The position numbers and the translations under genes were made by a program. Of a DNA stretch of 64,000 bases, positions 28,501-46,645 are shown piece after piece. This stretch comes from a virus (Duplodnaviria; Caudoviricetes): positions 1-64,000 of IMG/VR virus record IMGVR_UViG_3300021400_001580. One strand, given 5' to 3'. Below the pieces are notes generated by a model that was given only the letters and a program-made list of their open reading frames with translations, had not been told where the DNA came from and ran no database searches. Position 1 is the first letter of the stretch, and the number at the start of each line of letters is the position of its first letter.

Positions 28501-28883
28501 TGACTATTTAGTTCGGTGTTGATTCTACTTATACAAGACAAACCTATGATAATGTTCATTTCGAAGGAATTCTGACTGTCTAGGGATCATCAGCGATAAA
28601 GGAATTTAAAACAAATATTATAGCTGAGGTAAGTGGCTTCTCGCAAGCTTCTAAACGGTGGACGTATACTTTTACGGCAAATGTACACACTGGAAGTGCC
28701 AATTTTGGCGCGAATCCAAAGAGACATATATTAATCAAAAATCTTCAAATGTACACTAGTCAAAGTGGCTCAGAGTTAAATTTTTATGTGTTACAGGCAC
28801 AAGTGGTATGTTTAAACGTGGGTGTTGCTGGTGGCACAACTTGTGATGTTATTTACTATCCAGCAGGAGCTGGTCCATCATAA
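22587..28883 (+). CDS. Tal/central tail fibre-host specificity protein (~2098 aa, multiple TAG)
   Basis: AAGGAGG RBS. N-terminal YEVSLWTLQDTFITVL typical of baseplate-hub/Tal proteins, then coiled coil and beta-repeat fibre region. Eight track fragments (23520...28215) are in the same frame. Ends TAA at 28881-28883 next to a terminator. Confidence 0.78.
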
Positions 28884-28922
28884 TAAAAAATAGCCCCTCC
28901 ATTCGGAGGGGCCTCTTTTTTT
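28884..28922. terminator. Bidirectional terminator at the convergence of late (+) and early (-) blocks
   Basis: AAAAAA-ta-GCCCCTCC-attc-GGAGGGGC-ctc-TTTTTTT, with an A-tract on the left and a T-tract on the right. Confidence 0.9.
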
Positions 28923-28924: not shown

Positions 28925-29314
28925 TTACTCACCAAAATCTATAAACGGTTCAAGCCGTGCCATCTCAGATGGCGTAAAGTTTACACTTTCTAGCGCATTA
29001 ATATCTAACTTATTAGCATTAATTTCAACTTCACCCTTGAGTAGCTCTGAAATTTCATCATTAAAATCTGTTAGATGCTCTGGCGCGATCTTACAATTTC
29101 CATTCTCATCCGTTACAAGCTCGCCGTTATCGTCCTTAACACCACACTTATTAATTACCTTTAGCCGAGCATCATTAAATCCCTGCATTTCAGCTTCAGC
29201 AGACTTTAGTAGCCTGCTAACTTCCCACGCCAGCTTAGCCTTTAATTCGGCGTTAGCTAGCTTCTGTAGCACTTCTGTGCTGTTCACCAAATCTCCAATG
29301 GTTAACTTAATCAT
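28925..29314 (-). CDS. Conserved phage protein (DUF1617-like), 129 aa
   Basis: Clean ORF whose ATG overlaps the upstream TGA (ATGA). Pattern LAWEVSRLLK...INKCGVKDDNGELVTDENGN resembles DUF1617 from memory; not verified by search. Confidence 0.55.
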   Translation of the reverse strand: MIKLTIGDLVNSTEVLQKLANAELKAKLAWEVSRLLKSAEAEMQGFNDARLKVINKCGVKDDNGELVTDENGNCKIAPEHLTDFNDEISELLKGEVEINANKLDINALESVNFTPSEMARLEPFIDFGE

Positions 29315-30057
29315 ATATCTTCACCCCAATTAATTGTTTTTATTTGTCCACAAAAATATTTTCCAATACAAATTGCATCTGCTTCATCTTCTGTGCAATC
29401 TATATCATACCAAATTTTTACTTTCGCCTACGCGGCTTTTTTGCGTGCGTCTCGGTGCATGTCACCGGTACTTACGCCGCAATACGCGCGCCATTCGCTA
29501 GGATACACCAAATCACTATCAACACATGCCTCAAATAACGTATCTAATATTACACCTTGCAAATTTGCCAGTGTCTAGAACGTTTTTACCTGCGTTTGTG
29601 ACTTATTAGGGCCATAGCTTTGTAGCTATATGTTCTCGGCTCCTACAAAGTTCGGGTCCCACTCCTTCAATGCGGCTTTAAGCCAATTCTTTACTTGATT
29701 AATTCGTTCTACTGTTGGTAATGCCGCATTTGTTCTAAAAGTTCCATATCCAACTAAGGTCTTGTCATCGTAAATAGAGTATCCAGTAACACCAGTTGCT
29801 GCATCCAGCGCAAGAATACGTGTTGTGTTTGTGCCCTTATTGGGCACCTTATTTTTTTTGACTTTATACGGGTCTCCTGCCATACAGACATCGCATATCT
29901 TATGTTTGCGCCAATATTCAAATGTTTGTTCCTATTCATGTCCATAAGGACACTTCATTTTTAATGGCGTTTTTAAATTTGTATATGTTTCACTAATTAA
30001 CTACCAATTTTCGGCTTCTAAGGCATTCTATACAATGTATATATTAATTTTACTCAT
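29311..30057 (-). CDS. RuvC-like Holliday junction resolvase with N-terminal Zn-ribbon (248 aa, 6 in-frame TAG)
   Basis: Hand translation: MSKINIYIV*NALEAENW*LISETY...MKCPYGHE*EQTFEYWRKHKICDVC...RILALDAATGVTGYSI...AENI*LQSY...KTF*TLANLQGVI...PSEWR...KKAA*AKV...TEDEADAICIG. All RuvC acidic motifs are present only with read-through. TAATG and ATGA overlaps at both ends. Confidence 0.85.
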
Positions 30058-30845
30058 TATACGCCAGTAGATCCAAAGCCGCCGTCATTGCGGTCTGACG
30101 CCGCTAGAATATCTACTGCATGCGCCTGAAAACGATCATTCGGCATTACTAGCAGCTGCGCTATGCGTGCGCCTGCTTCGATAGGATAATCTTCATTAGA
30201 TGTATTATCATATAGAACGCCAAGTTCACCGCGATAGGAAGAATCAATTAATCCAACACTATTGCTTAGCCGTAGCGGCGTTTTCGCGCCAATACTAGAT
30301 CGCGGTAGAATAAATGCCATCCATCCTTCTGGTAGCTGAATACTAACACCAGTTCTGATTTTATTCCCGTAAGAATGCGCCGGAACTGTTACATTCTCAA
30401 GTGCATATAAGTCCGCTGCCGCATCAGTAGGATGCGCGTAAGTCGGCATTGTGGCACCATTGTCTAATTTAATTGGTAGTTCGATTGAATAAGAGTGGTA
30501 CTTCTGTTTAACAGTATCGAAGATTTCCTGCACTCCAGACATCACTTTATCAATTAAAATCTTCTTATTACCAGTGAGTACCTCTTCACCATATACCAAC
30601 TCTTTTAAAGTACTTGATAGCGCGTCAAGTGAGTTGATTGCTTCTTCCTTATTAAGACCTTGCGCGTTTAGATTGGAGATGATCTGATTTACAGACTGCA
30701 TTACAGCCGTACCATTAAAATTGGTTTCAAGCATCTGCATAACACGCGCCATGGTGCTTTCGGTTAAATCTTCCTCAGAAAGATTCTTTAAATTATCAAG
30801 CGCTTGCATTATTTCATTTAATTCCGCGCTTACAATCTCGTCCAT
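30057..30845 (-). CDS. dut: Trimeric dUTPase with ~120-aa N-terminal helical extension
   Basis: Motifs AAADLYA, PRSSIG, VGLIDSSYRGE, RIAQL and RNDGGFGSTG. Confidence 0.92.
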   Translation of the reverse strand: MDEIVSAELNEIMQALDNLKNLSEEDLTESTMARVMQMLETNFNGTAVMQSVNQIISNLNAQGLNKEEAINSLDALSSTLKELVYGEEVLTGNKKILIDKVMSGVQEIFDTVKQKYHSYSIELPIKLDNGATMPTYAHPTDAAADLYALENVTVPAHSYGNKIRTGVSIQLPEGWMAFILPRSSIGAKTPLRLSNSVGLIDSSYRGELGVLYDNTSNEDYPIEAGARIAQLLVMPNDRFQAHAVDILAASDRNDGGFGSTGV

Positions 30846-30856
30846 TTTATACCTCC

Positions 30857-31072
30857 TTAAGTCTCATAAGATACTGTGATTTCAACCATCCACCATTCTT
30901 CAGTAATCTCACCAGTCTTACGATCCTTCTTAGTCTTATAATCAATTTTCGTTTTTACTACAGTATACCCTTCAGTAATTGCGCGCGCCTTGTAATCGTC
31001 AACAAGCGCAGCAGCATCCTGCTCTGTGTATGCCCGGTAAACCTCAGTCTTCTTTGTCATTGTGCTCAGCAT
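30857..31072 (-). CDS. Hypothetical protein (~71 aa)
   Basis: Track ORF 30857..31093. Start moved to MLSTMTKK behind a purine-rich RBS; start uncertain. Confidence 0.6.
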   Translation of the reverse strand: MLSTMTKKTEVYRAYTEQDAAALVDDYKARAITEGYTVVKTKIDYKTKKDRKTGEITEEWWMVEITVSYET

Positions 31073-31412
31073 TTTCTTTTTCCTTCCTTTCATTTAATGC
31101 GCGTAGTTTTTGAATAAGATTGATATAATCTAGTTTTTTCGCAGTTTCACTAACTGCATTTAATGCGTCATCATTACTTTGAATCAGTTCAGCGTATTTT
31201 TTCGCGCCCATCTTCTTGCGTAATGCTCTGCGTTTAGCACGATTCATTGGTATTTGCGTACTATTGATCTTTTCAATAGTGAAATCCTGAATCTTTTTTA
31301 ATGTTTCTTCTGGTGTTTCAGCGCCTATTTGTGTGCGCGCTTCATCTTTACTAATATTCTATACTTGCGCGAAGCGCTCTATTAATTCGTCAACGGATAA
31401 GTGCTCGTCCAT
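31044..31412 (-). CDS. Hypothetical protein (122 aa, one in-frame TAG)
   Basis: GGAGG RBS then MDEHLSVDELIERFAQV*NISKDEARTQ..., continuing in frame into track ORF MNRAKRRALRKK (31044..31247). Confidence 0.7.
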
Positions 31413-31413
31413 A

Positions 31414-32403
31414 TTACCCTCCAGCAGTGCGGTTATACCCAACTTCTTGGGTCTTAAAGAATTCTATGTAATACTTTTCCAATTCGTTTAATTTATCTTT
31501 ATCACAATAAGTTATTACTTCAATAGCCCAATTCCAGAAACCTTCTTTAAGAATAGCATGATGTACTGCTTGGTCTGCGATTGAACGGATTCCGATAGAA
31601 GACTTAAAGTGATCTGCAATTCGTGTTTTCACATTAGTACTCTTACCAATATAACATTTACCCGTGTTAATATTTGTTATTTTATATATACCAGGTTCAG
31701 GCTTAATTTCTATTCGTTTAAAGGTATCATCTAAGTTTGGTTTAACATATTCTGCCCAAACTAGTTTTGATATGATATCTGGATGCTGTACTTTTGCGGC
31801 GACAGTTGTCAATAAGAACTCAATATCATCTTTATATTCATCTGGTAGTTGAATTGTATAATATAATCGTTGCTATTTCTCTAAATCATACTACTGTAAT
31901 GTATTTTTAATCCCTTCAAACTTTTCTCGCGCAGCATTTATTTGTATCCGATAATCTTCACACTAAGCTTCCGCTAAAAGTTTAGCATTTTCTACTTGCT
32001 AAGTTAGATCAGCAATCTAACTATCACGTATATGTTCTTTTCGGTCAAGTTCTTGCGCGAGCTCGTGTGCTTTTAACTAAAAAGCATTCTCTAATGCTTT
32101 CTCTTTAGCCGCGATTTCACGTTTAAGGTTTTCTTCCTACTCATACCGCTATTCTTCAAAAAATTCTTCTAATTCTTCAGAACGGTCACGAATAGCATCT
32201 GTATAACGCTTATGCTCCTATTCCGTATCGTGCCGTAATTTTTCTAAATCATTCTCAAGCGTTGCTTTCTATTGTTGTAATACAGTTACAGCGGTATTTA
32301 ATTCATTGCGCGCGGTTTGATCTAAAATCTATTTCTCGTGATATTTATAAATAAGGAAGAATAGCGGAATTAGCATAACAAGGAATACTATCCAACCGTT
32401 CAT
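31414..32403 (-). CDS. Membrane-anchored coiled-coil GIY-YIG nuclease (329 aa, 11 in-frame TAG)
   Basis: GAGGTG RBS. N-terminal hydrophobic helix MNGWIVFLVMLIPLFFLIYKY, ~170-aa E/K/Q-rich coiled coil containing all the TAGs, then GIYKITNINTGKCYIGKS...R...H...E...GYN (GIY-YIG motifs). Confidence 0.85.
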
Positions 32404-32433
32404 CTTCTCACCTCACTCTTTTTCTTATATCTT

Positions 32434-32462
32434 ATTATATCAAAAATTTCTGAAAATGTCAA
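32434..32462 (-). promoter_or_regulatory. Sigma-A/sigma70 consensus promoter
   Basis: TTGACA-17 bp-TATAAT on the minus strand, upstream of the GIY-YIG gene. Confidence 0.85.
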
Positions 32463-32465
32463 ATA

Positions 32466-32502
32466 ATAAAAAAAAGAGGACGAGCATTTTACTGCTCGTC
32501 CT
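32466..32502 (-). terminator. Rho-independent terminator after the FNT gene
   Basis: AGGACGAGCA-gtaaaa-TGCTCGTCCT followed by CTTTTTTTT on the minus strand. Confidence 0.85.
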
Positions 32503-33052
32503 AAATACTGAAATTACTAAAAATGATACCGCCAATAATATTGCCTAAAATCGTTGCGATAAAAGACCAAGTAAACGAATGAGTTATGGATAAATAATAA
32601 TAATCTGCAATACAGTGATTAAATCCCGCGAGTATAAATCCCATAACGCACAGAATACACATCCATAGAGGCGACTTCTTACATGTTGCCAATGACATTA
32701 ATATTCCGCAACCAACTCCCTTTATGAGTGCATCACCAAAAGATTGTGAAGCTTTTATTATACTTATACTATCCGCCGCATTTATTACTAGATTACGAGA
32801 AATGACTGTAATTAATGTAACTCCAATAAAATTCCCTACAAGAAAAATAATATAATCATACCATTTATATTCACGTGTAATCATATATTGAATTTTCCCT
32901 GTAAATAAATTTAAATTGTAAATACGCACTGCTAATAGTCCACATGAGAATAAGAACGCACCTATAATAGGATTAGATACAGATAAGTACATCCAGCCAC
33001 TTAACGCAATAATTAATCCGGCAAGAACTGATTTATGTATTTTTGTTAGCAT
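32489..33052 (-). CDS. Formate/nitrite transporter (FNT) family channel, short form
   Basis: Six hydrophobic segments. FNT-like motifs GAFLFSCGL, LNLFTG, KGVGCGILMSLA and FILAGFNHCIAD. Standard-code stop TAG at 32501-32503; in code 15 it extends QDEQ to TAA at 32489-32491. Confidence 0.8.
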
Positions 33053-33533
33053 AATAATCCTCCATCATAATAATACGTTGATTAGGAGACCCTCGCAAAG
33101 GTAATGTGGTATCGCGAGTATTGATATCAAATCGGCCATCAATCAAACAAGTAATATTACGCAAAATGGCAGATAATGCCCAATTATTACGTTCTTCTAA
33201 TTCTTCGATTGTATATCCGGTCCATAGATAAATTTTTAATTGCGGAAATTCATGTTTACACCAGCCAATTAATAGTGCTACATCTTGTAAATTCTCATCC
33301 GCTAGCGGCTCGCCGCCGAGTATACACAAAGTACGCATTACGCCATTTTTATTTAATTTCTTAATAATTTCAAATAGTGTTCCTACCGTAAAGTCTTCGC
33401 CATAGTTAAAATCTTGTGCTTCGGGATTATGGCATCCGGGGCAATGGAAATGACATCCCGAAAAATACACTGAGAGGGAGATACCTGGCGCCGCCGCGGT
33501 ATCATCCCAATAGATTCCTGCAATCTTACTCAT
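33033..33533 (-). CDS. nrdG: Anaerobic ribonucleotide reductase activating enzyme (radical SAM)
   Basis: YFSGCHFHCPGCHNP (CxxxCxxC), ILGGEPL, WTGYT, IDGRF and LRGSPNQR. Adjacent to nrdD. Confidence 0.95.
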   Translation of the reverse strand: MSKIAGIYWDDTAAAPGISLSVYFSGCHFHCPGCHNPEAQDFNYGEDFTVGTLFEIIKKLNKNGVMRTLCILGGEPLADENLQDVALLIGWCKHEFPQLKIYLWTGYTIEELEERNNWALSAILRNITCLIDGRFDINTRDTTLPLRGSPNQRIIMMEDYYANKNT

Positions 33534-35764
33534 TAGTGTATATGCTTAACGCGATCTTCAGTTTCTTTCTGCTTGCCCCAATTGAACGCGTCTTTATACG
33601 AGCCTGTTAAATAGCCAGTTACTCTACGAAGTCTTGAAATATTCTTACTGCCGCACTCAGGGCAGCTTTCACCAATTTCATCCTGATAGCCGCAGTCATT
33701 ACACATGTCCAGCGGCACGTTCAAAGCGAAATACGGTATGTCGTGGTCCATAGCGTAATTTACTATGGTTTCGAGCGCGGGAATGTTATTCTTTACTCCA
33801 GAAGGTACTTCTACATATGTAATACATCCGGCGCTAGAATAACCCGTTAGTTGGCTTTCAATATCAATCTTGTCAAATACTGAAATATCGTGCCATACTG
33901 GGACGTGAATGCTATTTGTAAAATATTCACGGTCGGAAACATTTGGAATTTCGCCGTATTTTGCCTTGAACTTCTTCATGGCTGTGTAGCAGAGATTTTC
34001 GGCAGGAGTGTAATATACTCCAAAGTTGAGGTGATATTCCTTTTTAAACTCTGCACATCTGTCTTTAAATAGCTGCTCGATCTCCTTAGCGAGTTTCATT
34101 CCTTTTTCAGTAGTATGGTCACAGCCAATTAAGATTTGAAGGGTTTCCGCAAGTCCTAGCTGCCCAATAACAATAGTGCCGTGTTTCAATGCAGAGCGAA
34201 TACCTTCTTCTGGATGATAACCTAGCATTGTATTATTTTCATACATAAACTTCGCAGATGCAGGAGATTGCTTGCAAATCCACTCAAAACGTTCAAGTAG
34301 CATATCTTTTGCTTCATGGATTTTTTTATCTAGTAATGACATAAAAGCAGTAATATAATCATCTACATCTGGATAAGCAGCATCTACTGCGTTTTTTGCT
34401 TCCATAGCCAATGTTGGCATAATAATAGTGACAGGACAAATATTTCCGCGGCCATCCTTACGTTGAGGATTAACACCGGGTTCTGCATTTATGTCTGCGC
34501 CATTTGCGGTACGACACCCCATTGTGCTGAAATACGTGGTTGGATCGTTTGGATCATATCCTGCATTTCCAGACCAATCAATATTGGCATAATTTGGATA
34601 GATGCGCTTGGCAGTGGATTCGAGCGCGAGTTGATATAAATCATAATTCGGATCACCGGGCGCGCGATTAATACCCTTTCCAAGCTGGAAAATACCACAT
34701 GGGAATATGGGAGTTTTATGATATTTACCTACGCCTTTAATAGAGCCTTCTAGCAATGCCTTAATTACCATACGACCTTCGGGCAATGTACAAGTACCAT
34801 AGTTAATAGACGTGAAAGGTAGCTGATTTCCGCTTCTAGATTGAAGCGTGTTAAGATTGTGATACATGCCCTCAACTGCCTGTTGAAGCTCACGCGTGGT
34901 CATGTCCATAGCATATTCATATGCTTTTCTATTATATGGTGCATTCACTATAGGATCTGTAAATGAAAGTTCTTTTGGTATCTTTTCTTCATCAATAACA
35001 TCTGGTGGGCATAAATATTTAAGTCCATCTTTAAAATGCTTAGCAAAACTTTTCCTCACATAAGGAACCATAGTCCAATCTAAATGAGTTGCGCTAACGC
35101 CGCCAAACTGCATTAGAGATTGAAGTTGAAATATAACTGCTACAAGTTGGAAAGCAGTATTGATAGAATTGGCAGGACGCACATCCGTTTGCCGTGTGTT
35201 AAAGCCCTTGGCTAGTAAATCATCAAATGGAATACTTAAACAATTATGCATACCAACAGCATACGCGCTTAAATCATGAATATAAATTTCATTATTTAAA
35301 TGGTTCGCGCGCGCCATAGGTGAGATACAATAATCTAACGCATACTGTTTCATCATTTCATCAGAGGCTTCGCCAACCCGGCCGCCGAATGAATGCTCGT
35401 CTACATTTGCATTTTGATTTTGCACATTAGATGCTTGAAGTTTTTCACTAATAGCACGAATAAATTCGGTTGAATTTGCGCGCATAATACCATGCTTATA
35501 GCGATATTTAATATATGCTTTACCGACTTTTAAATCATAATCGGTTAAATAATCTTCAACCAATTCTTGAATATCTTCTACGCCCATTGGTGCGTCTAAT
35601 TCCTGCGCAACATATTCTACTTCATCGGCAATTTCTTCAGCATAGCGTGGGAATCCTTTCTCTGTAGGATACACCTCGTGCCAGGCTTTGCATATAGCGG
35701 TTTGAATTTTTTCTTTATCAAATGGTACTAACTGTCCAGTACGTTTACGAATTTGCAATTTCAT
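33533..35764 (-). CDS. nrdD: Class III (anaerobic) ribonucleotide reductase, TAG-free
   Basis: N-terminal ATP cone (IRKRTGQLVPFDKEKI), IYIHDL, HNC, TMGCRT, YYTPAE, C-terminal CxxC...CxxC and glycyl-radical motif RLRRVTGYL. ATG 35764 preferred by RBS spacing. Confidence 0.97.
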   Translation of the reverse strand: MKLQIRKRTGQLVPFDKEKIQTAICKAWHEVYPTEKGFPRYAEEIADEVEYVAQELDAPMGVEDIQELVEDYLTDYDLKVGKAYIKYRYKHGIMRANSTEFIRAISEKLQASNVQNQNANVDEHSFGGRVGEASDEMMKQYALDYCISPMARANHLNNEIYIHDLSAYAVGMHNCLSIPFDDLLAKGFNTRQTDVRPANSINTAFQLVAVIFQLQSLMQFGGVSATHLDWTMVPYVRKSFAKHFKDGLKYLCPPDVIDEEKIPKELSFTDPIVNAPYNRKAYEYAMDMTTRELQQAVEGMYHNLNTLQSRSGNQLPFTSINYGTCTLPEGRMVIKALLEGSIKGVGKYHKTPIFPCGIFQLGKGINRAPGDPNYDLYQLALESTAKRIYPNYANIDWSGNAGYDPNDPTTYFSTMGCRTANGADINAEPGVNPQRKDGRGNICPVTIIMPTLAMEAKNAVDAAYPDVDDYITAFMSLLDKKIHEAKDMLLERFEWICKQSPASAKFMYENNTMLGYHPEEGIRSALKHGTIVIGQLGLAETLQILIGCDHTTEKGMKLAKEIEQLFKDRCAEFKKEYHLNFGVYYTPAENLCYTAMKKFKAKYGEIPNVSDREYFTNSIHVPVWHDISVFDKIDIESQLTGYSSAGCITYVEVPSGVKNNIPALETIVNYAMDHDIPYFALNVPLDMCNDCGYQDEIGESCPECGSKNISRLRRVTGYLTGSYKDAFNWGKQKETEDRVKHIH

Positions 35765-35769
35765 ATGAA

Positions 35770-35976
35770 TCACCCCTTAAACTTTTTTCCACAATAGGGG
35801 CATTCATCACCATTTGAAAAATCATACGCTCCTATGTTGTGCGGGCATAAATTCTGTAGCTCTTTAATTTCATTTCTAATTGTAAAAATTCGATCAGAGC
35901 GTTCCATTTTACTTAACTCTTTCTTTAAAGCCGTACTTAATTCATCATACTTTAACTTAATATCGTTGACTTCCAT
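35770..35976 (-). CDS. Small Zn-ribbon protein (68 aa)
   Basis: CPHN...CPYCG motif, in an operon with nrdD. Confidence 0.6.
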   Translation of the reverse strand: MEVNDIKLKYDELSTALKKELSKMERSDRIFTIRNEIKELQNLCPHNIGAYDFSNGDECPYCGKKFKG

Positions 35977-37057
35977 ATTTCCAAAAACCTCCTTGTTTCA
36001 CTGTCTCCATAGTTTGATAAAACAAGTTCTTTTGAGAAGGATATTTCTTTAATATTATTTCAAGCTGTTCGCGCTCAGGGCGAATTTCAGTCATACTTTT
36101 ATCTTTAGGAATCCTTTCTGCTATAGATTTATACCTACTTGTTTCACCTTGTGTCCAAGTCGCAATTAGCTTGGATATATCTGTAATCGGATTGTAATAT
36201 CCCATTGCTGGTTCTTCGTATTTAATCTTTAACGGAATTTTACAGCTCCAAAATACATACAATAAATTTAATTTGTAAATAATATCTTTAAAATAATCAG
36301 TTTGATAACGAAATGAGCCGCCAAGTGATAAATATACTTGCGCGCTTGGAGGAATGACTGCCAATAACCGATTTTTATAATGCTTCATTAAAACAGATGT
36401 TTCTTTAAGCGGGATATCTAAATCGAGATAAGCGTCATTCCCTCGTGCAATTAAACTATTTTCACGCACTTCTAAAAAGTCTGATATTCGTTTATAATGT
36501 GCTGGATGAATGAATTGTATAGATGAGGGATTACGTTGAATTATTTTATCAATAACTGTGCGCCATCCTTCACGAAAAAAGTCTATATCATAGATATAAA
36601 GGCGATGCCGTTTACGAATTGCTGGCAAGGGTAAGACTTCCTCGCCGGCATGCCAACGGTAGTAAGCATTATCTAATAATTTCTCTATTTCTTTATCTAC
36701 CAGTCCAGCCGCGCGCTTATCTTTTAAAAAATTCTAATAAATACTAGTACGCGGTAAGGTGAAATCAATTAATTTATTCTCGAATGGCACGTATGTTCCA
36801 TTTGTGAACGCGGTGCCGCCGTATATAACATTTGGCGCTCGCGCGAATGCATCTGGAACTTTGGTAAACTCTTTTGACTCGCTAAAAATATAGATTTTTT
36901 CGTAAGCCGATAATTCAGTTTCATCTAAATTAATTAAGCGGCAAAATTTATTTTCTTCTGATTGATAATAATTTGCTAGCTTCATTATCTCAAGATTGGG
37001 AGGACAGAGTTGAGGCTTAGGCCAGCTCTGTAATGCTAAATCCACTAGGCCAATCAT
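35957..37057 (-). CDS. Degenerate radical-SAM-family-like protein (366 aa, one in-frame TAG at 36734-36736)
   Basis: Track ORFs 36734..37057 and 35957..36628 are in frame, joined by TAG plus 35 sense codons. N-terminus (MIGLVDL...PPNLEIMKLANYY...YGGTAF...PRTSIY) resembles a common phage family starting IGLIDVD..FPNLALMK. No CxxxCxxC seen. Confidence 0.6.
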
Positions 37058-40000
37058 TACTCCACCACCTCAACTCGTTCCGTCTGGAACTCTAAAGTTC
37101 CATCATCATGTATTGCTGTAATTTTAGAAATTACAGGATAAAAACTATCTTTCCGCTTTTTAGGAATAAAGTCACTTTCGCGCCTGATTCCCTGAACCAT
37201 TAACAATGTACCTCTGGAGAACCAGCTCTTTTCCAAAGTGTGTTTGTGACCATCTGATCCAACTTGAGAAATCTGCTTATCAAACATTGCATACTGATTT
37301 TTATATACTTTAACATTAACTACGCCTGTCGGGGTTAATAATGTTACAGTATTCTTCATTTTATTCTTATCAATAACTGTGCCAATAATTCGTCTTAACT
37401 TATATACTCTAACTTCATTACCGTCTTTACCATTAAAAGTATAATCTACTTCTGGCTCTTCCGGTAGTTTAAAGAAATTATCATATAGATATTGAGAATT
37501 AGCTAATTCATGTGGATGGCTGTAAAATGAAACAGATTCCATTTCCCAATGCGATATACTACCTGCCGCGTATTTATTAAACATTTCATCATATAATGCT
37601 TTGTTTAGCTTATTCAAGACTTCTTCTTTATGCCCTTTTAAGTACGCACGCATCGGATCCATACCTCGTTGATATAGATTATCCCACACTGTTGCGGAAA
37701 TAGTTATACCATTTGAAATATAGTCCGCACTGAAATGATTAGCAATAAAGTTAATAGCTGCATCATTTAATTGATAATTATCAACTTTCTTTTGCTGCTT
37801 TAAAAACTTATTAAATAAGAATAACTTTTTACAAAAAATAAGCTCATCTGGAATTAAATTATAGTTAATAAGCATTTGCATATTCTGTAATGTTAATCTT
37901 TGTTTCTTATCAGCTATCATACTAATATATGTTGCCATAATTTCTTCACGAGGCAAATCTACTAATTCATCAAATGCTCCGCATTTAATTAAGTTAGACA
38001 TTTGAATCTTGTTTACTTTAACTCTATCTATGAAGTCTTGGACTGAATGAAAAGGTCGCTTGGAGATGATTTCCTGAATGATGGAAGTTGAGAGTCTTGT
38101 AATTCCTCGTAGACCATACAAGATTTCATTTCGTTCAACAACTGGGGTGAAAGTATAAGATGAGCTATTGATATTCGGTGGGGAAACCACAATTCCATAA
38201 GTACTGAACCGTCCGATTGCGGAAGCCACTTTGCCGTAATCGACCGTTTTTGTTTTTTCTTTCTTTTTATCTTCTCGTTCATCTGCGCTAGTAGTTTCAT
38301 TTTCTTCCTCCCATTCTTCTTGCTCTTCTTCATCAAGATCTTCATCAGGTTCTGCTTCAACTACCAAAGATGCTTCACCGTCTTCATCATATTCAACAGT
38401 CTGAATACCACCGCTATCTACAATAAGATTTGCGGTATTCCAGAATATAATAGGGAAGAACCGAGCAAGATTCATTTCTTGTAATGCAACCATTGAGTAC
38501 GAATACGTGTGTGCCGCATTAAATCCATATCCGCGACTCAATGCAATCTCAATATTCCATACATAATTACAGAACTTTTCACTCAATCCTTTTTCTTTTA
38601 CATTATCAAAGAATTGTTTTGTTAATGCATCATACTCTTTAGGATTCTTTTTTGCTATAGATTTTCTTAATTTATCTGCAAACTGTAAGTCCCAGCCGCC
38701 GCATTCAGGTAATTGAACCAACTGCATAAATTGTTCTTGTGTGATTGACATACCATCAGAAATATCTAATTCACGATGCATAATCTTACGTTCTTCATCT
38801 GTAAGACCCATCTGAATCATTTCTTTATCCCAATCTTGCGGCTGCGCCCTAAATCGTGCATATTTGTCCAACGGACTTTCTGCGCCTTTTTCAGTTGCCA
38901 TTAAGCGGATAACTGAATTAAGAACCGCAAGTTCGTCAACACTACGTGGATGCGTTAATGCGATACCACGCACACCACTTTGTTGTTCCATCTGAAACAA
39001 AGATACGATTTCATGATTTTGAACCATATCCCACATTTTCTTATCGTCACGATTTATCTTATAAACTCCAAGCGCATTTTCATACGTTTCTCTAAGATTC
39101 TTACCAACTTTAATATATCCTTGTTCACTCAATAAATCTAGACATGTATGAATCTTATCGGCTGCTTCAACGCTTAACAAGTCCATCTTAATCATTGAAA
39201 CATCTTCAAGGTCATGTAGCTCAAACTGAGTAATGATTGTACCATCAGGTGCGCGCATTAATGCACTTGATTCTGTAAAATCTTCATCTGTAAATACAAC
39301 GCCGCCCGCGTGAATACCCTGGCCGCAAATCAAACCTTCAATTCTTTGAGCAACTTCCCAAAGCCCAGGATGCTTATTAACTTCATTTATAAAAGTTTGA
39401 TTGGGCGGGATTCCATTTTCTTCATCGCCATAATAAGTTTGCTTTAATGTATAAACCTGACCACGCTCTGCTTGAATAAGATTGGAAATATAAGATGCTT
39501 CATCGTTATCTATACCTAAGCCGCGACAAGCTGTTTGAATTGCCGACTTAGACTTTTCTGTCTTAAAGGTTGCAACATTTGATACTCGGTTTTCTCCATA
39601 TACCTTTCTCAAATGTTCCAAAGTCTGTGCTCTACGAACGCCCTCAATATCAACATCAATATCAAGTACAGAAACACGAGCTGGATTCAGAAAGCGCCAA
39701 GGATATGTCTTCGTCTTTTCACGCAAGCAATTAATCTGAATAATATCAAGTGCATAAAGTAATACGAATCCCATACCAGATCCGCGCGCCGGCAATACAA
39801 TCGTTCCTGCATTCCAACATTCATCTATAATCTTCTGTAGATTTAAGAAATATGCTGACCATTGCGCTTTATTTACTTCTGAAGAAACCCAAGTCATTTC
39901 CAGGCATTCATTTAATGCTTTATATGCTTTTTCATTTTGAAGATCTTCATGCTTTTTAATGCCATCTATTACTGCAAAAAATAACTCACTATCTGCATAA

Positions 40001-41025
40001 TGTTCAGAATGTAAAAACTTTTCTAGCGCAGGCATTAATGAAATATAATAATCTATTTCCTCTTGTGTTCTTGCGTGGAAATTTCTCCACGGTAGGCTCG
40101 GAATCTTTAATGGCTTTAGAATACTAAAATCTTCACATTTATCTTTAATTTCTCTGATAGAAGCATACGCGGCTTCAATCTGTTCTTCAGTTAGATATGA
40201 GAAGAAATTTCTAATTTCTTCATCACTCATCATATACGTTGTCGCATAGAATGAACGAACTTCTCTATCACCATCTTGTGAATTAAGAAATGCCTCATGA
40301 ATTTTAGCTTCTTCCGGCCGCCCATAATGGCTATCGGTTGTTATAATATATTTAATTCCAAGTTCCTTTGAAATTTTTAACAATTGCTTATTAACAAATA
40401 CCTGCTCTTTCCCATTTGAAGGTTGCATCTCCAAATAGAAATTGCCTTTACCAAATATATCTTCAATATATAAACACCAACGCTTTGCAGTTTCATAAAA
40501 TTCTTCATCACCTGTATCCATATATTGAAGTAAAAATCTATCTAACTGAGAACCTAGACATGCGCTACTTGCAATTAAATGTCCTCGATCTGGTTTTACA
40601 ATATCTTTTAAATCTTGATAGTAAGTTGGACGCCTACGTTGGCGCCGACTCATATACGAACGTTGCCACGCTCTTGTAGATAACTGACAAATCTGTTTAT
40701 ATCCAATCTTATCTTTTGCAAGAAGAATAAAGTGAAAATATCTATCTTTCGTTTTATCGAAGTTTTTTGCGGTTAAACCGTTACGAGTAAGATATATTTC
40801 ATTACCACGAATTAATTTAAAGTCAGGATGTGTTTCTTTAATCTTCTTATAATATTTTTCTGCCTTAATATAACTTGATATAGTTTCATGGTCAGTGATT
40901 GCAACACATTCATGCCCAAGTTCAATTGCTAAATCAATTAATCCTTCAACACGATTTATACAGTCACGCAGTGTTTCATTACTATACATTGTGTGATTAT
41001 GACAGGACCCTGGATATTTCGACAT
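37057..41025 (-). CDS. dnaE: DNA polymerase III alpha subunit (PHP + Pol III core), 1322 aa, TAG-free
   Basis: PHP motifs HNHTMYS, AITDHE, GNEIY, TTDSH. Core motifs PARGSG, RFLNPARVSVLDIDVD, GIHAGGV, KMDLL, YGFNAAH. Confidence 0.96.
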   Translation of the reverse strand: MSKYPGSCHNHTMYSNETLRDCINRVEGLIDLAIELGHECVAITDHETISSYIKAEKYYKKIKETHPDFKLIRGNEIYLTRNGLTAKNFDKTKDRYFHFILLAKDKIGYKQICQLSTRAWQRSYMSRRQRRRPTYYQDLKDIVKPDRGHLIASSACLGSQLDRFLLQYMDTGDEEFYETAKRWCLYIEDIFGKGNFYLEMQPSNGKEQVFVNKQLLKISKELGIKYIITTDSHYGRPEEAKIHEAFLNSQDGDREVRSFYATTYMMSDEEIRNFFSYLTEEQIEAAYASIREIKDKCEDFSILKPLKIPSLPWRNFHARTQEEIDYYISLMPALEKFLHSEHYADSELFFAVIDGIKKHEDLQNEKAYKALNECLEMTWVSSEVNKAQWSAYFLNLQKIIDECWNAGTIVLPARGSGMGFVLLYALDIIQINCLREKTKTYPWRFLNPARVSVLDIDVDIEGVRRAQTLEHLRKVYGENRVSNVATFKTEKSKSAIQTACRGLGIDNDEASYISNLIQAERGQVYTLKQTYYGDEENGIPPNQTFINEVNKHPGLWEVAQRIEGLICGQGIHAGGVVFTDEDFTESSALMRAPDGTIITQFELHDLEDVSMIKMDLLSVEAADKIHTCLDLLSEQGYIKVGKNLRETYENALGVYKINRDDKKMWDMVQNHEIVSLFQMEQQSGVRGIALTHPRSVDELAVLNSVIRLMATEKGAESPLDKYARFRAQPQDWDKEMIQMGLTDEERKIMHRELDISDGMSITQEQFMQLVQLPECGGWDLQFADKLRKSIAKKNPKEYDALTKQFFDNVKEKGLSEKFCNYVWNIEIALSRGYGFNAAHTYSYSMVALQEMNLARFFPIIFWNTANLIVDSGGIQTVEYDEDGEASLVVEAEPDEDLDEEEQEEWEEENETTSADEREDKKKEKTKTVDYGKVASAIGRFSTYGIVVSPPNINSSSYTFTPVVERNEILYGLRGITRLSTSIIQEIISKRPFHSVQDFIDRVKVNKIQMSNLIKCGAFDELVDLPREEIMATYISMIADKKQRLTLQNMQMLINYNLIPDELIFCKKLFLFNKFLKQQKKVDNYQLNDAAINFIANHFSADYISNGITISATVWDNLYQRGMDPMRAYLKGHKEEVLNKLNKALYDEMFNKYAAGSISHWEMESVSFYSHPHELANSQYLYDNFFKLPEEPEVDYTFNGKDGNEVRVYKLRRIIGTVIDKNKMKNTVTLLTPTGVVNVKVYKNQYAMFDKQISQVGSDGHKHTLEKSWFSRGTLLMVQGIRRESDFIPKKRKDSFYPVISKITAIHDDGTLEFQTERVEVVE

Positions 41026-41052
41026 TTACTCACTTCCTTTACTCTATATCTT

Positions 41053-41081
41053 ATTATATCATAAATTTTAATTTTTGTCAA
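41053..41081 (-). promoter_or_regulatory. Sigma-A promoter for the dnaE-nrdD operon
   Basis: TTGACA-17-TATAAT with TG extension. Confidence 0.85.
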
Positions 41082-41358
41082 TATTATCTAAGATGCCGAC
41101 CTGCCATAATCTAAATAAAATATTATTAATTACAGCCATTTCTTCTGGGCTATCTTCTATATTTGTACCTTCAATCAATTTTTCTCGGCACATTTGAATT
41201 AATTCTTCTCTATTATCATTACAACATGAATTCATTTGTATTCTCTCCTTATAACAATTACACTTACTTCTGGCGTCCATTTTACAATTAAATAAATTAC
41301 ACCGATCATAATACCACTCATAATATTTGCAAGTGTCACAACATTTTTTAGAAGTCAT
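41068..41358 (-). CDS. Cys-rich hypothetical protein (96 aa)
   Basis: ORF behind a promoter, containing CCDTCKYY...C...C. Confidence 0.55.
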   Translation of the reverse strand: MTSKKCCDTCKYYEWYYDRCNLFNCKMDARSKCNCYKERIQMNSCCNDNREELIQMCREKLIEGTNIEDSPEEMAVINNILFRLWQVGILDNIDKN

Positions 41359-41388
41359 ATTTGCAGCTATCTTCCTTTATTCATACCT

Positions 41389-41417
41389 ATTATATAATAA
41401 AATTTAATATTTATCAA
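41389..41417 (-). promoter_or_regulatory. Sigma-A-like promoter
   Basis: TTGATA-17-TATAAT. Confidence 0.7.
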
Positions 41418-41650
41418 AGCTTTCTACCACACCAAGGACAGTATACTATTTGTGTTTCTCCAACATACTCTTTCATATATATGTGAATATGATGTTCGTC
41501 TTCTCTTTGTGTATTTACCGAGTATGCTGATAGCCGCCATTTATTACCTTCATTTACTAATTGCATGTGTATACCATGCTCTCCTGCTATTACATGGTCC
41601 CTTTCATCAGTATTTTGTAGACAATATAAACATTGTTTATTAGAACTCAT
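41414..41650 (-). CDS. Small Zn-ribbon protein (78 aa)
   Basis: CLYC...YCPWCGRKL. Start uncertain. Confidence 0.5.
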   Translation of the reverse strand: MSSNKQCLYCLQNTDERDHVIAGEHGIHMQLVNEGNKWRLSAYSVNTQREDEHHIHIYMKEYVGETQIVYCPWCGRKL

Positions 41651-43412
41651 ATTTACTATTATCCTCTACTAATTCATAGTCGGTAATGAATACTTGGACT
41701 GATTGTTTGCCCATCCATTCATTAAGATTCGCGCGCCCATAGACAGTTAACTTCTTGGTTCTATCATTCATAACTTCTTCAATGAAGTCTGTATCTTTAA
41801 ATTTCACATAATCAATACCATTATATGAAATCTTAATACTATCTTTACTTGTGCCCATAACCATAACATTCATTAATGGGATATTTTTAATAACAATCGT
41901 TGGTTCTTCAATATGATTGCCAAAATACTCTGGATGTGAAGCAAGACAACCAAGTAATTCATCATTATAATCATTACCATCTAAGATATAATCTACAACA
42001 TAACAATTTTCAAAGTCTTTTGCGCTTAAATGTTTATTAGCATAATTTAATAGAGAATCTAGTTTATCACCATTTAATCCCCAGCCGGCGGCATTATCAT
42101 GCCCTGCAGTATATGTCACTAATCCGCTATCTTCCAAAAACTTTTTAAAACTAGGCAATCCAGCAAAATTTCCATCAGATCGGATACTACCTTGAATTTC
42201 ATTATCATTATTGCGGCGACCAATCATAACAGGCTTATGGTACTTACTTACAACATTCATTGCAATTAGGCCAGTTAGTTCTTGCGGAATATTATCCATT
42301 GCGTCTAATTCTACAAGAATAATATTATTATCGTCTAGGCCATCTTTCTGAATCTTAAAGTCTACTATACCCATAGCCTGTTCTTTTAATCTATCTTGCC
42401 GTGCTTTAGCATTCTTACCTACTCGTGCAGTCTGTTCGGCTGCATATTCAATATCTCCTGGGCGCGCGCCGCGTTTAGTACTCTGCATTGGTTTATTGGG
42501 TTCAATAAAGCAATAGAACATGGTTTCTTTTTCTGTGATGGTACCTACGCGCGTAATAGCATTAATAAGAGGAGCAATATAGAAAGCAATATCAATTGGA
42601 GTTAATCCGTTATATGGAAAAACGGCTTTATCTTTTAATGAATATGCTTGAGATTCAATAAGTGTTCTAAAGCCTTCATTATGAATGTTCTTTAATCCTT
42701 CTATCATAATATAATTGGTTTCCACATCGGTTCTATCCATTACATCTGCGATTTCACCTAGCGCGGCCAAATCAATATAATTATGTGCTTGACTTATACC
42801 TAGTTTTTCATCCAGCACTTCACAAAACTTATAAACCACGCCAGCGCCACATAATGATTTGTTTGGATAATCTGGCGATAGTTGATTATTTACTACAATA
42901 GTTGTCGGGAGGTTAGAAGTAACAGGATTACCCTAATCATCATATAATTGTTCATGATGATCTAAACAAATAACATCCATACCCATTTCTCCAAGCAAAC
43001 GATGTTCTTTTACATCATATGAGCCAGCATCGGGTAAAATTACTAAGTCCCAACGTGCTTCATCTGTAATCCAATCTACTTTATCATTAAGGCCGTGTTG
43101 CTTATGATCGTGTACCGTAAATTCTAACTCTGCCTCTGGGAAGATATGTTTTATATATAACCAGAGAATTGCGCTTGATGTGAACCCATCACAGTCGGCA
43201 TCTACAACAAAAAGAATTTTATGCTTTTCACGCAAGTGATGAAATAGTCTTTCTGCTGCGGCATCAATATTCTTTAATTGATATGGATCGTTTTCACATA
43301 ATATACTCGGGTTCATAAACTGTTCTATATCTTGAACTCCTCTATCTTGTAGGAGTTCTTTTAATGCTTTATCTGGGTTTGTACTATATTCTTTTCTTAA
43401 TCTATATCTCAT
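41640..43412 (-). CDS. recJ: RecJ-like single-stranded DNA exonuclease (DHH family), 590 aa, one in-frame TAG at 42933-42935
   Basis: Motifs VDADCDGFTS, PDAGS, DHH, then TAG, then NNQLSPDYPNKSLCGAGVVYKF, LAALGEIADVM, IAPLINAITRV, GSIRS and GHDNAAG. The two track ORFs are in frame. Confidence 0.92.
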
Positions 43413-43423
43413 ATTATCTCCCT

Positions 43424-44542: not shown

Positions 44543-44543
44543 T

Positions 44544-46139: not shown

Positions 46140-46156
46140 ATCATCCCTCCTTCGTT

Positions 46157-46645
46157 TTAATCATCAAATAGTCCGTCTGCTAAATTAATTTCAGGCCGAG
46201 TTGTATTATTTTCTTTAATTTTTACCACAGATTCTTTCATTTCCGTATGCGCAATCGCAGCTGCAATACTACTAGCTTGCGCCTTTTGACTAGCCTGCCA
46301 TGCTTTCATATTGAATACGGTCTTTGGATTCACTAATCCTAATGATTCTTTTAAAATCTTTTTATTACATACTTTATACATATAATCTAAACAATCAATA
46401 ATAATATCATCCGTATATCCGTATGTATTCTGTAAATATTTACGTTGCGACCAAATTAATGGCCCAGGGGATTTAATTCCAAAAATTGAACAGACTTTAT
46501 ATGAAAACTTTTCTCGCGCCAATTTTTCTTCATAACAATTAGGACAAAACCAATATGTAGTTTTACCACTAAGTGTCGAGTACTGCAACATTTCATCCTT
46601 CCTAAATTCTTGTTTACAGCCGTGACAAACACGAGTAATTTTCAT
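46157..46645 (-). CDS. Zn-ribbon protein upstream of the helicase (possible loader/adaptor)
   Basis: CHGC...FCPNC, first gene of the helicase-primase-RecJ operon. Function inferred from position. Confidence 0.55.
   Translation of the reverse strand: MKITRVCHGCKQEFRKDEMLQYSTLSGKTTYWFCPNCYEEKLAREKFSYKVCSIFGIKSPGPLIWSQRKYLQNTYGYTDDIIIDCLDYMYKVCNKKILKESLGLVNPKTVFNMKAWQASQKAQASSIAAAIAHTEMKESVVKIKENNTTRPEINLADGLFDD

What the first reader, a model, noticed from the sequence alone, without database searches (positions are those of the whole stretch)
29311..43412. All three stand-alone nucleases are TAG-gated while the replisome is TAG-free: a possible genetic-code timer for DNA processing
Seen: RuvC-like resolvase has 6 TAG (first at codon 10), the GIY-YIG protein 11 (first at codon 25) and RecJ 1 (codon 160). 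DnaE, NrdD, both topoisomerase subunits, helicase, primase, Sak4, SSB, dUTPase and the permease (~5,600 codons) have none. The nucleases share sigma-A-driven operons with TAG-free neighbours: the GIY-YIG gene is first behind a perfect TTGACA-17-TATAAT, and RecJ follows helicase-primase. Inference: transcription is early, but full-length nucleases are made only once amber suppression is established. Replication could then start in the host code while resection, resolution and cleavage are delayed. Recoding is usually discussed for structural and lysis genes; this nuclease-specific pattern is the most novel idea I can support here.
Basis: partly seen in the sequence, partly recalled or inferred. 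Interest (0 to 1): 0.88.

Follow-up and report, generated by a model that had tools for sequence, protein, structure and literature searches.

The report
Amber-gated nucleases in recoded phage
In a rumen-type phage that reads the stop codon TAG as glutamine, the DNA-junction-cutting enzyme and a membrane-anchored nuclease carry as many TAGs as the virion genes although they sit among TAG-free replication genes, so they can only be made once the phage's suppressor tRNA works; this is a clear new example of a published idea, and the third nuclease (RecJ) does not share it.

Summary
The counts are correct, but the rule holds for two of the three nucleases. The RuvC-like resolvase has 6 TAG, the GIY-YIG protein 11 and RecJ 1. 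Ten replication and metabolism genes (5,460 codons, 209 Gln codons) have none.

Across about 120 related loci:
- RuvC keeps a median of 7 TAG, with 2 or more in 29 of 31 recoded relatives. About half its Gln codons are TAG, as in virion genes.
- The GIY-YIG gene keeps 2-15 TAG.
- RecJ has 0 TAG in 22 of 31 relatives. Its one TAG is a private CAG-to-TAG change, and its TAG share equals DnaB's.

A PIN-PhoH gene outside the window also always carries TAG. So do some non-nucleases at lower density: a Clp protease, a radical-SAM-like protein and an 811-aa unknown.

RuvC overlaps the TAG-free dUTPase gene by one base, so the codon class is set gene by gene inside one predicted host-promoter operon. 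Codon bias does not explain the pattern.

This is the published code-switch model. Borges et al. already proposed it for a recoded homing endonuclease in an early gene. It parallels T4's hairpin delay of endonuclease VII. The scan has noted amber-gated resolvases before, in crAss-like phages.

The window and its contig hold no suppressor tRNA; complete relatives do. Timing is inferred, not shown.

The parts
29311..30057 (-). RuvC-like Holliday-junction resolvase, 248 aa. It has an N-terminal Cys/His zinc-ribbon-like segment and a RuvC domain from about residue 81. It carries 6 in-frame TAG (codons 10, 19, 42, 144, 161, 210).
   Evidence: phrog_827 E 7.5e-20 and phrog_159 E 7.5e-15. D85, E141, D224 and D227 are invariant in alignment A2. 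Recoded relatives have a median of 7 TAG and a pooled TAG share of 0.50.
31414..32403 (-). Membrane-anchored GIY-YIG nuclease, 329 aa. It has an N-terminal hydrophobic helix, a charged coiled-coil-like stretch of about 170 aa that holds all 11 TAG, and a C-terminal GIY-YIG domain (237-321).
   Evidence: Pfam GIY-YIG E 3.9e-9. The anchor is conserved in relatives, standard-code ones included, and the gene is syntenic. Recoded relatives carry 2-15 TAG.
41640..43427 (-). RecJ-like 5'-3' exonuclease (DHH, DHHA1, RecJ_OB). It has one TAG and is effectively a TAG-free-class gene.
   Evidence: Pfam hits are. 22 of 31 relatives have 0 TAG, and the pooled TAG share is 0.028.
42933..42935 (-). The single RecJ TAG (codon 165). 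It is a private CAG-to-TAG change at a variable position.
   Evidence: Relatives at 94-96% identity have CAG here. Others have AAA, AAT, GAA, GAC and so on.
30057..30845 (-). dUTPase with an N-terminal extension and 0 TAG. Its TAA stop overlaps the RuvC ATG (TAATG).
   Evidence: Pfam dUTPase E 6.8e-27. The overlap is seen in the sequence. The pooled TAG share in recoded relatives is 0.028.
28925..29314 (-). Small conserved protein (phrog_1401, weak DUF1617 match) with 0 TAG. It overlaps the RuvC stop by 4 nt and is the last gene of the unit.
31044..31442 (-). 132-aa protein of unknown function between the GIY-YIG gene and dUTPase, with 1 TAG.
32434..32462 (-). Perfect sigma-70/sigma-A-type promoter (TTGACA, 17 nt, TG-extended TATAAT). 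It is the last of 19 near-consensus minus-strand promoters in the contig.
   Evidence: The site is conserved before the GIY-YIG gene of G002.
32477..32502 (-). Intrinsic-terminator-like hairpin ending the nrdD-nrdG-FNT unit, just upstream of that promoter.
28892..28913 (.). Bidirectional terminator-like hairpin between the replication arm and the convergent virion block.
32489..41025 (-). DnaE (37057-41025, 0 TAG), a radical-SAM-like 366-aa protein (35957-37057, 1 TAG), NrdD (33533-35773, 0 TAG), NrdG (33033-33533, 0 TAG) and an FNT channel (32489-33052, TAG at codon 184 of 187).
41053..41081 (-). Second perfect sigma-70-type promoter, before DnaE.
43424..53835 (-). TAG-free replisome and recombination genes: primase, DnaB, a 162-aa protein, Sak4, a 298-aa protein, a MarR-like protein, TopoA and TopoB. 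One small 130-aa gene here has 1 TAG.
1..28883 (+). Virion block, used as the reference for TAG-permissive genes. About 43-48% of Gln codons are TAG in the large proteins. Four strongly codon-biased genes have 0 TAG.

Best explanation
**What it is.** The phage reads TAG as glutamine and its genes fall into two codon classes.
- In one class, selection keeps TAG out (about 0-3% of Gln codons). This class holds the replisome, topoisomerase, ribonucleotide reductase, ligase, RecJ and the most strongly codon-biased genes.
- In the other class, TAG is an ordinary Gln codon (about 35-55%). This class holds the large virion proteins.

The RuvC-like junction resolvase and the membrane-anchored GIY-YIG nuclease belong to the second class. 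So does PIN-PhoH, outside the window. All three are embedded, gene by gene, in host-promoter operons of the first class.

**How it likely works.** Their first TAGs lie upstream of the catalytic domains, so no active protein can be made until the phage's tRNA(CUA) suppressor is working. These enzymes are in effect late proteins made from shared messages.

This is the published code-switch gating of late genes, acting on single genes. The logic matches T4's RBS-hairpin delay of endonuclease VII and I-TevI. It is not a rule about nucleases as such, and RecJ's one TAG is a recent chance substitution.

**Shown:** the codon classes, their conservation, the gene packing and TAG = Gln. **Inferred:** co-transcription, the delay and any benefit.
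For: - **TAG = Gln.** TAG aligns mainly with CAA/CAG in orthologues: 83 of 214 non-TAG partners.
- **Window counts.** RuvC 6 of 13 and GIY-YIG 11 of 23 Gln-family codons are TAG. The virion proteins show 124/262, 41/86 and 10/23.
- **Relatives.** RuvC has a median of 7 TAG, 2 or more in 29 of 31 recoded loci, and a pooled share of 0.50. GIY-YIG has 0.38-0.41 and PIN-PhoH 0.34. DnaE has 0.001, TopoA 0.002, ligase 0, dUTPase 0.03, RecJ 0.028 and DnaB 0.027.
- **Several lineages.** The family holds both standard-code and recoded members, and a RuvC tree separates several recoded lineages. RuvC is TAG-rich in each, while the flanking dUTPase and DUF1617 genes are not.
- **Gene packing.** dUTPase, RuvC and DUF1617 overlap by 1-4 nt and carry 0, 6 and 0 TAG. 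RuvC has no Shine-Dalgarno sequence of its own.
- **Promoters.** 19 near-consensus host-type promoters lie on the minus strand. Only one match, inside a gene, lies in the virion block of this contig.
- **Not codon bias.** DnaE, primase and DnaB have the same weak bias as RuvC and GIY-YIG, yet no TAG.
- **Suppressor.** A tRNA(CUA) is the first gene of the tRNA array in the complete relatives G002 and G003, behind a host-type promoter.
- **RecJ.** Its TAG is private; the nearest relatives have CAG.
- **Precedents.** Borges et al. describe a recoded intron endonuclease in an early gene. PMC2988022 reviews the T4 translational delay of gene 49 and I-TevI on early polycistronic mRNAs.
Against: - There are no expression data of any kind.
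- The 89-kb contig is about half a genome and holds no tRNA(CUA).
- The suppressor in relatives is an odd 85-86-nt tRNA. ARAGORN found it, but the Rfam tRNA model did not.
- If the suppressor is transcribed from the first minutes, the delay may be short.
- Host-type promoters also head TAG-rich blocks in G002, so such a promoter does not prove early transcription.
- Internal late promoters inside coding sequence cannot be excluded.
- TAG retention in RuvC equals that in virion genes. The gate may therefore be tolerated rather than selected.
- Intermediate cases blur a strict two-class picture: Clp 0.22, the 366-aa protein 0.23, and PIN-PhoH, whose TAG counts vary widely between relatives.
Confidence: 0.62

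Rival explanations
1. One reading: an adaptive, nuclease-specific genetic-code timer. All stand-alone nucleases, RecJ included, are deliberately TAG-gated so that resection, resolution and cleavage start only after replication.
For: The three highest TAG shares among 31 non-virion gene families are all nuclease-fold proteins: RuvC, GIY-YIG and PIN-PhoH. The chance of that placement for 4 labelled families is about 9e-4, and a rank test gives p = 0.01. Both tests are post hoc. Extra GIY-YIG copies in relatives also carry TAG. Earlier scan notes report amber-gated resolvases in crAss-like phages; I did not check them.
Against: RecJ fails: 0 TAG in 22 of 31 relatives, and its one TAG is private. 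Non-nucleases also carry TAG: Clp protease, a radical-SAM-like 366-aa protein, an 811-aa unknown, and dNMP kinase in G002. TAG retention in RuvC is no higher than in virion genes. Each family counts as roughly one evolutionary event, so the effective sample is three or four.
Confidence: 0.15
2. TAG marks only low expression. Suppression is imperfect, so highly expressed genes purge TAG and rare proteins such as nucleases tolerate it. Timing plays no part.
For: The most codon-biased genes are TAG-free and use CAG almost exclusively, even inside the virion block: 1202-2317, 6107-7072, 47817-48713 and the RNA ligase.
Against: DnaE, primase, DnaB, NrdG and TopoA have codon bias as weak as RuvC and GIY-YIG, yet essentially no TAG across 25-31 relatives. 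A 4,248-aa virion protein with 124 TAG requires near-perfect read-through late in infection, so inefficiency cannot be the general cost.
Confidence: 0.12
3. The TAG-rich genes are transcriptionally late. They are read from unrecognised late promoters inside the operons, and TAG simply accumulates in anything transcribed late.
For: RuvC is the second-to-last gene of the arm, next to the virion block, in all relatives. PIN-PhoH, Clp and the 811-aa gene lie at the distal ends of their predicted operons. No late-promoter motif is known for this phage, so none could be searched for.
Against: The 1-nt overlap of dUTPase and RuvC, and the 4-nt overlap of RuvC and DUF1617, leave no intergenic room. 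The gene after RuvC is again TAG-free. The GIY-YIG gene is the first gene after a perfect host-type promoter.
Confidence: 0.1

Closest known systems
Stop-codon recoding as a translational gate on late and lysis genes of phages (code-switch model; Borges et al., bioRxiv 10.1101/2021.08.26.457843; also Yutin et al. 2021, PMC7886860)
   Same: TAG is read as Gln. Replication genes stay in the standard code while structural genes are recoded. Relatives carry a phage suppressor tRNA. Borges et al. already describe a recoded (TGA) group I intron homing endonuclease inside an early gene and propose that in-frame stops keep it from being made until late.
   Different: This is a different phage family: about 180 kb, rumen-type samples, DnaE replisome, Firmicutes-like consensus promoters. 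The gated genes are core, syntenic genes (RuvC-type resolvase, membrane-anchored GIY-YIG, PIN-PhoH), not an intron passenger. They are interleaved at single-gene resolution with TAG-free genes in overlapping reading frames.
T4 translational delay of late proteins encoded on early or middle polycistronic mRNAs: RBS-sequestering hairpins for gene 49 (endonuclease VII), I-TevI/II/III, segB, e and soc (review PMC2988022)
   Same: The logic and partly the targets are the same. A junction resolvase and GIY-YIG endonucleases are transcribed with earlier genes but translated late.
   Different: The mechanism differs. T4 uses RNA structure plus a late promoter that omits it. Here premature termination at TAG would block the protein until a suppressor tRNA acts. 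No experiment exists for this phage.
Amber-gated endonuclease-I-type resolvases in the TAG-free replication block of crAss-like phages
   Same: A DNA-debranching nuclease is the TAG-bearing exception among standard-code replication genes, and this is conserved in relatives.
   Different: Those cases have one TAG near the start of a T7-endonuclease-I-like gene in Bacteroidota phages. Here an unrelated RuvC fold carries 5-13 TAG at full virion-gene density. I did not verify those notes.

Membership tests
Partially TAG-to-Gln recoded phage (code 15 with code switch) | In-frame TAG in conserved genes at positions that are Gln in orthologues | tested here: met
   Of the 214 non-TAG codons aligned to TAG, 83 are CAA/CAG; Lys (28) and Glu (24) come next. 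RuvC relatives interchange TAG and Gln codons at the same columns.
Partially TAG-to-Gln recoded phage (code 15 with code switch) | Phage-encoded suppressor tRNA with anticodon CUA | tested here: inconclusive
   There is none in the window or in the 89-kb contig, which is about 50% complete. The complete relatives G002 and G003 have one at the head of the tRNA array. It is an atypical 85-86-nt tRNA that the Rfam tRNA model did not list.
Partially TAG-to-Gln recoded phage (code 15 with code switch) | Replication genes free of the recoded codon, structural genes rich in it | tested here: met
Partially TAG-to-Gln recoded phage (code 15 with code switch) | Recoded genes are translated later than standard-code genes | not testable with these tools
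   There is no isolate and no time course.
RuvC-like Holliday-junction resolvase | Sequence membership and conserved acidic catalytic residues | tested here: met
   phrog_827 E 7.5e-20 and phrog_159 E 7.5e-15. D85, E141, D224 and D227 are invariant across 7 orthologues down to 38% identity. The profile match to E. coli RuvC 1hjr is weak (E 0.046).
RuvC-like Holliday-junction resolvase | Junction-specific cleavage activity | not testable with these tools
   This needs a biochemical assay.
GIY-YIG homing endonuclease (I-TevI / Seg type) | GIY-YIG catalytic domain | tested here: met
   PF01541 E 3.9e-9; phrog_314, phrog_7168 and phrog_5123.
GIY-YIG homing endonuclease (I-TevI / Seg type) | N-terminal catalytic domain with a C-terminal DNA-binding domain, and sporadic, mobile occurrence | tested here: not met
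   The domain is C-terminal, behind a conserved membrane helix and a coiled-coil-like region. The gene is syntenic in recoded and standard-code relatives. Extra GIY-YIG copies at varying places in G001-G003 do fit a mobile element.
RecJ exonuclease | DHH, DHHA1 and RecJ OB domains | tested here: met
   E 1.2e-14, 4.8e-4 and 7.7e-11.
   RecJ has 0 TAG in 22 of 31 relatives. Its pooled share is 0.028, against DnaB 0.027 and Sak4 0.033. The window's TAG is private.

The most novel reading that the evidence does not exclude
Junction resolvases, and more loosely other nucleic-acid-cutting enzymes, are recurrent and convergent targets of stop-codon gating. Unrelated resolvase folds are involved: RuvC-type here and, per earlier scan notes, endonuclease-I-type in crAss-like phages. 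In each case the gene has become the TAG-dependent exception inside a standard-code replication operon. The code switch would then serve as a single-gene translational timer, doing what RBS hairpins do for T4 gene 49.
Probability: 0.35. Interest if true: 0.65.

Novelty: new member of a known kind. Interest (0 to 1): 0.42.

Why it matters
The finding shows, with many relatives, that the line between standard-code and recoded genes in a partially recoded phage runs gene by gene inside tightly packed operons, not block by block.

A DNA-debranching nuclease is a consistent member of the recoded class. That gives a concrete, testable case of translational timing by genetic code, through TAG-versus-CAG alleles of one small enzyme.

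The phage family has both standard-code and recoded members with the same gene order. That is a natural comparison for how recoding spreads through a genome.

It also corrects the annotation. The GIY-YIG gene is a conserved membrane-anchored protein rather than a homing endonuclease, and RecJ is not gated.

Tried and rejected
- **GIY-YIG as a mobile homing endonuclease.** This was my first rival, from the PHROG names. I rejected it for this copy because of its synteny, conserved membrane anchor and C-terminal catalytic domain.
- **The 366-aa gene next to DnaE as a sliding clamp.** That would have put TAG into the replisome. I rejected it. The AlphaFold model (pLDDT 89.5) resembles class-B radical SAM enzymes at VIA Z 8-9.4 with rmsd about 6 Å, a weak match. 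Foldseek found nothing at E below 0.001. The profile search of PDB sequences found nothing useful.
- **Other nucleases in G000-G003.** HNH, FEN (5_3_exonuc_N), DEDD (RNase_T), PDDEXK_1 and Terminase_6C gave no matches. A wider within-genome nuclease comparison was therefore not possible.
- **PHROG scans of 16 small unannotated genes in the window.** None is a recognisable nuclease.
- **Selection to keep particular TAGs.** Retention in RuvC is 0.43-0.57, within the range of virion genes at similar identity. The first TAG lies at or before codon 56 in all recoded orthologues, but that is expected at this TAG density.
- **A shared late-promoter motif.** Virion-block intergenic regions show terminator hairpins and strong ribosome-binding sites only, and there were too few to define a motif.
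- **Code state of L161 and L165.** I first scored these as recoded in the tree. They are standard-code genes whose RuvC simply ends in TAG. The count of code-state changes (8 by parsimony, at least 5 forced by well-supported branches) is therefore an upper estimate.

Full report
**What is in the window**

Read with TAG as a sense codon, the window resolves into two blocks. A plus-strand virion block covers 1-28883. A convergent minus-strand block of replication and nucleotide-metabolism genes covers 28925-64000.

The window is the first 64 kb of an 89,280-bp viral contig that is about half complete. Related contigs in IMG/VR reach 170-190 kb, and some have direct terminal repeats.

In orthologue alignments TAG pairs overwhelmingly with CAA and CAG. 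Of 214 non-TAG partners, 83 are Gln codons, followed by Lys and Glu. TAG therefore means Gln.

**Checking the observation**

- RuvC-like gene 29311-30057(-): 6 TAG, first at codon 10.
- GIY-YIG gene 31414-32403(-): 11 TAG, first at codon 25.
- RecJ 41640-43427(-): one TAG, at codon 165 from the first ATG.
- No TAG in DnaE, NrdD, NrdG, both topoisomerase subunits, DnaB, primase, Sak4, dUTPase or the permease.

Ten of these genes hold 5,460 codons with 209 Gln codons. At the virion-gene TAG share of about 0.47, the chance of seeing no TAG is about 1e-58.

The functional names hold. No further recognisable nuclease is in the window.

The promoter claim also holds. A perfect TG-extended TTGACA-17-TATAAT sits at 32462-32434(-), directly after a terminator and before the GIY-YIG gene. 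Another sits before DnaE.

In the whole contig, 19 near-consensus promoters lie on the minus strand between 32 and 85 kb. Only one match, inside a gene, lies in the virion block.

The observation overreaches in two places.
- Several non-nuclease genes of the same arm carry one or two TAGs.
- Beyond the window, a Clp-type protease carries 1 TAG, a PIN-PhoH protein 5 and an 811-aa protein of unknown family 14.

I fetched about 120 related loci around RuvC, RecJ and PIN-PhoH. I also fetched two complete genomes, G002 and G003. I then counted in-frame TAG in orthologues.

| Gene family | TAG in relatives | Pooled TAG share of Gln codons |
|---|---|---|
| RuvC | median 7, range 1-13; 2 or more in 29 of 31 recoded loci | 0.50 |
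| GIY-YIG | 2-15 | 0.38-0.41 |
| PIN-PhoH | 2-17 in 14 of 14 | 0.34 |
| Large virion protein | 39-46 | 0.57 |
| dUTPase | 0-2 | 0.03 |
| DUF1617-like | 0-2 | 0.08-0.09 |
| DnaE | 0-1 | 0.001 |
| TopoA | 0-1 | 0.002 |
| Ligase | 0 | 0 |
| Clp protease | 0-4 | 0.22 |
| 366-aa protein | 0-7 | 0.23 |
| 132-aa protein | 0-4 | 0.24 |

RecJ is different from the other two nucleases. It has 0 TAG in 22 of 31 relatives. Its pooled share is 0.028, the same as DnaB (0.027) and Sak4 (0.033).

The window's RecJ TAG is private. The four nearest relatives have CAG or AAA at that codon, and the position varies freely across the family. It is a recent CAG-to-TAG transition, not a gate.

**Independence of the RuvC pattern**

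The wider family contains standard-code members as well as recoded ones. In the standard-code members the large virion proteins, RuvC and GIY-YIG all have no in-frame TAG.

On a RuvC tree the code state changes several times. Parsimony gave 8 changes and well-supported branches force at least 5. That is an upper estimate, because two loci I scored as recoded merely end RuvC with TAG.

RuvC is TAG-rich (4-13) in each separate recoded lineage, down to 38-43% identity. Gene order is the same throughout: DnaE, 366-aa protein, NrdDG, GIY-YIG, dUTPase, RuvC, DUF1617, then the virion block.

Two recoded genomes keep only one RuvC TAG. In both it lies at codon 43-44, still ahead of the catalytic domain.

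**Is it explained by Gln content, expression or neighbourhood?**

- **Gln content:** the share measure already normalises for it.
- **Expression:** a codon-usage analysis finds an axis on which a few genes are strongly biased, and these are all TAG-free and use CAG almost exclusively. They include two virion genes, the 298-aa gene at 47817-48713 and the RNA ligase. TAG avoidance therefore also tracks high expression. However, DnaE, primase, DnaB, NrdG and TopoA are as weakly biased as RuvC and GIY-YIG and still have no TAG. Expression alone does not explain the split.
- **Position next to the virion block:** the gene between RuvC and that block is TAG-free.
- **Operon membership:** the dUTPase stop overlaps the RuvC start (TAATG) with no ribosome-binding site of RuvC's own. 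RuvC overlaps the next gene by 4 nt. The three genes carry 0, 6 and 0 TAG.

**Is the gate selected for?**

Between orthologues, TAG and CAA/CAG interchange freely. The fraction of TAGs retained in RuvC (0.43-0.57) lies within the range for virion genes at like divergence.

RuvC therefore behaves as an ordinary member of the TAG-permissive class. Nothing shows that particular TAGs are kept on purpose.

What selection visibly does is purge TAG from the other class. The parsimonious reading is that RuvC, GIY-YIG and PIN-PhoH are not needed, or not wanted, before suppression is active.

**What the genes are**

- **RuvC-like protein.** It has an N-terminal Cys/His segment and a RuvC domain with invariant D85, E141, D224 and D227. 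The PDB sequence match to RuvC is weak.
- **GIY-YIG protein.** It is not a typical homing endonuclease. It has a conserved N-terminal membrane helix, then a charged coiled-coil-like stretch of about 170 aa that holds all 11 TAGs, then a C-terminal catalytic domain. It is syntenic even in standard-code relatives.
- **Additional GIY-YIG genes.** These lie at varying places in G001-G003, look mobile and also carry TAG.
- **366-aa protein.** It gives a confident model that weakly resembles class-B radical SAM enzymes. It is not a clamp or a nuclease.

**The suppressor**

Neither the window nor the contig has a tRNA(CUA). In G002 and G003 one is the first gene of the tRNA array, downstream of a host-type promoter and upstream of the replication arm.

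It is 85-86 nt long with an unusual extended variable region, and the Rfam tRNA model did not list it. In this contig the array runs to within about 1 kb of the end, so the gene probably lies just beyond it.

If the suppressor is transcribed from the start of infection, any delay depends on how fast it accumulates. That cannot be judged here. In G002, host-type promoters also precede TAG-rich blocks, so such a promoter is not proof of early expression.

**Comparison with what is known**

The code-switch model for recoded phages is published. Borges et al. report standard-code replication genes, recoded structural and lysis genes, and a preferentially recoded group I intron homing endonuclease in an early gene of Agate phages. 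They argue that in-frame stops should prevent its production until late.

The classical analogue is T4. Endonuclease VII (gene 49), I-TevI and other late proteins are encoded on early or middle polycistronic mRNAs. An RBS-sequestering hairpin keeps them untranslated until late transcripts appear (PMC2988022).

Earlier notes of this scan describe amber-gated endonuclease-I-type resolvases in crAss-like phages. I did not verify them. If they are right, the present RuvC-type case would be a convergent second instance.

Literature searches found no paper describing recoded junction resolvases.

**Verdict**

- It is not a property of nucleases as a class, and RecJ does not take part.
- The mechanism is that full-length protein requires the phage suppressor, so these enzymes are effectively late products of shared messages. 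It follows from sequence but is untested.
- The concept is already in the literature, so this is a good new example rather than a new kind of system.

Noticed in passing
G002 55157-55242 and G003 165546-165630 (relatives; not in the window): The predicted tRNA(CUA) suppressor is 85-86 nt long, with a long, apparently unstructured variable region and a conserved anticodon arm. ARAGORN calls it, but the Rfam tRNA model did not list it. It is the first gene of the tRNA array.
   Followed up: partly
window 35957-37057 (-): A conserved 366-aa protein between NrdD and DnaE has no Pfam or PHROG match. Its AlphaFold model is confident (pLDDT 89.5) and weakly resembles class-B (cobalamin-type) radical SAM enzymes (VIA Z 8-9.4). 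Its TAG count varies from 0 to 7 among relatives.
   Followed up: partly
window 31414-32403 (-): The GIY-YIG nuclease has a conserved N-terminal membrane helix and a long charged coiled-coil-like stalk. Standard-code relatives share this layout. It suits a membrane-tethered cytoplasmic nuclease, and its target is unknown.
   Followed up: partly
loci L118-L173 (RuvC relatives): The phage family holds both standard-code and TAG-recoded members with the same gene order. The code state changes several times on a RuvC tree. This is a natural comparison for how recoding spreads through a genome.
   Followed up: partly
G000 64471-65694 (-), 471 bases beyond the window end: The PIN-PhoH protein has 5 TAG here and 2-17 in all 14 clade relatives. 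The adjacent Clp-type protease has 0-4, while the ligase next to it has none in 13 of 13.
   Followed up: yes
window 32489-33052 (-): The only TAG of the formate/nitrite-transporter-like gene is at codon 184 of 187. The protein is nearly the same whether TAG is read as stop or as Gln.
   Followed up: no
G002 110555-113251: In this relative a 262-aa GIY-YIG homing-endonuclease-like gene (3 TAG) lies between a 404-aa DnaB reading frame and a 183-aa frame, before the primase. It may split or truncate DnaB.
   Followed up: no
window 1202-2317 (+), 6107-7072 (+), 47817-48713 (-); G000 73120-74349 and 77881-79374 (-): A small set of genes uses CAG almost exclusively for Gln, has no TAG and stands apart in codon usage. 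They are probably the most highly expressed genes. The set includes a virion structural protein, an RNA ligase and a Ro60/TROVE-like protein.
   Followed up: partly
G000 minus strand, 32434-85200: Nineteen near-consensus TG-extended sigma-70/sigma-A promoters (at least 11 of 12 positions) lie on the minus strand. This is typical of phages of Gram-positive hosts that rely on host RNA polymerase.
   Followed up: partly
G002 7545-9230: A 561-aa protein with weak DEAD-box-helicase-like matches carries 26 TAG. It lies among small TAG-free genes near the genome end of this relative.
   Followed up: no
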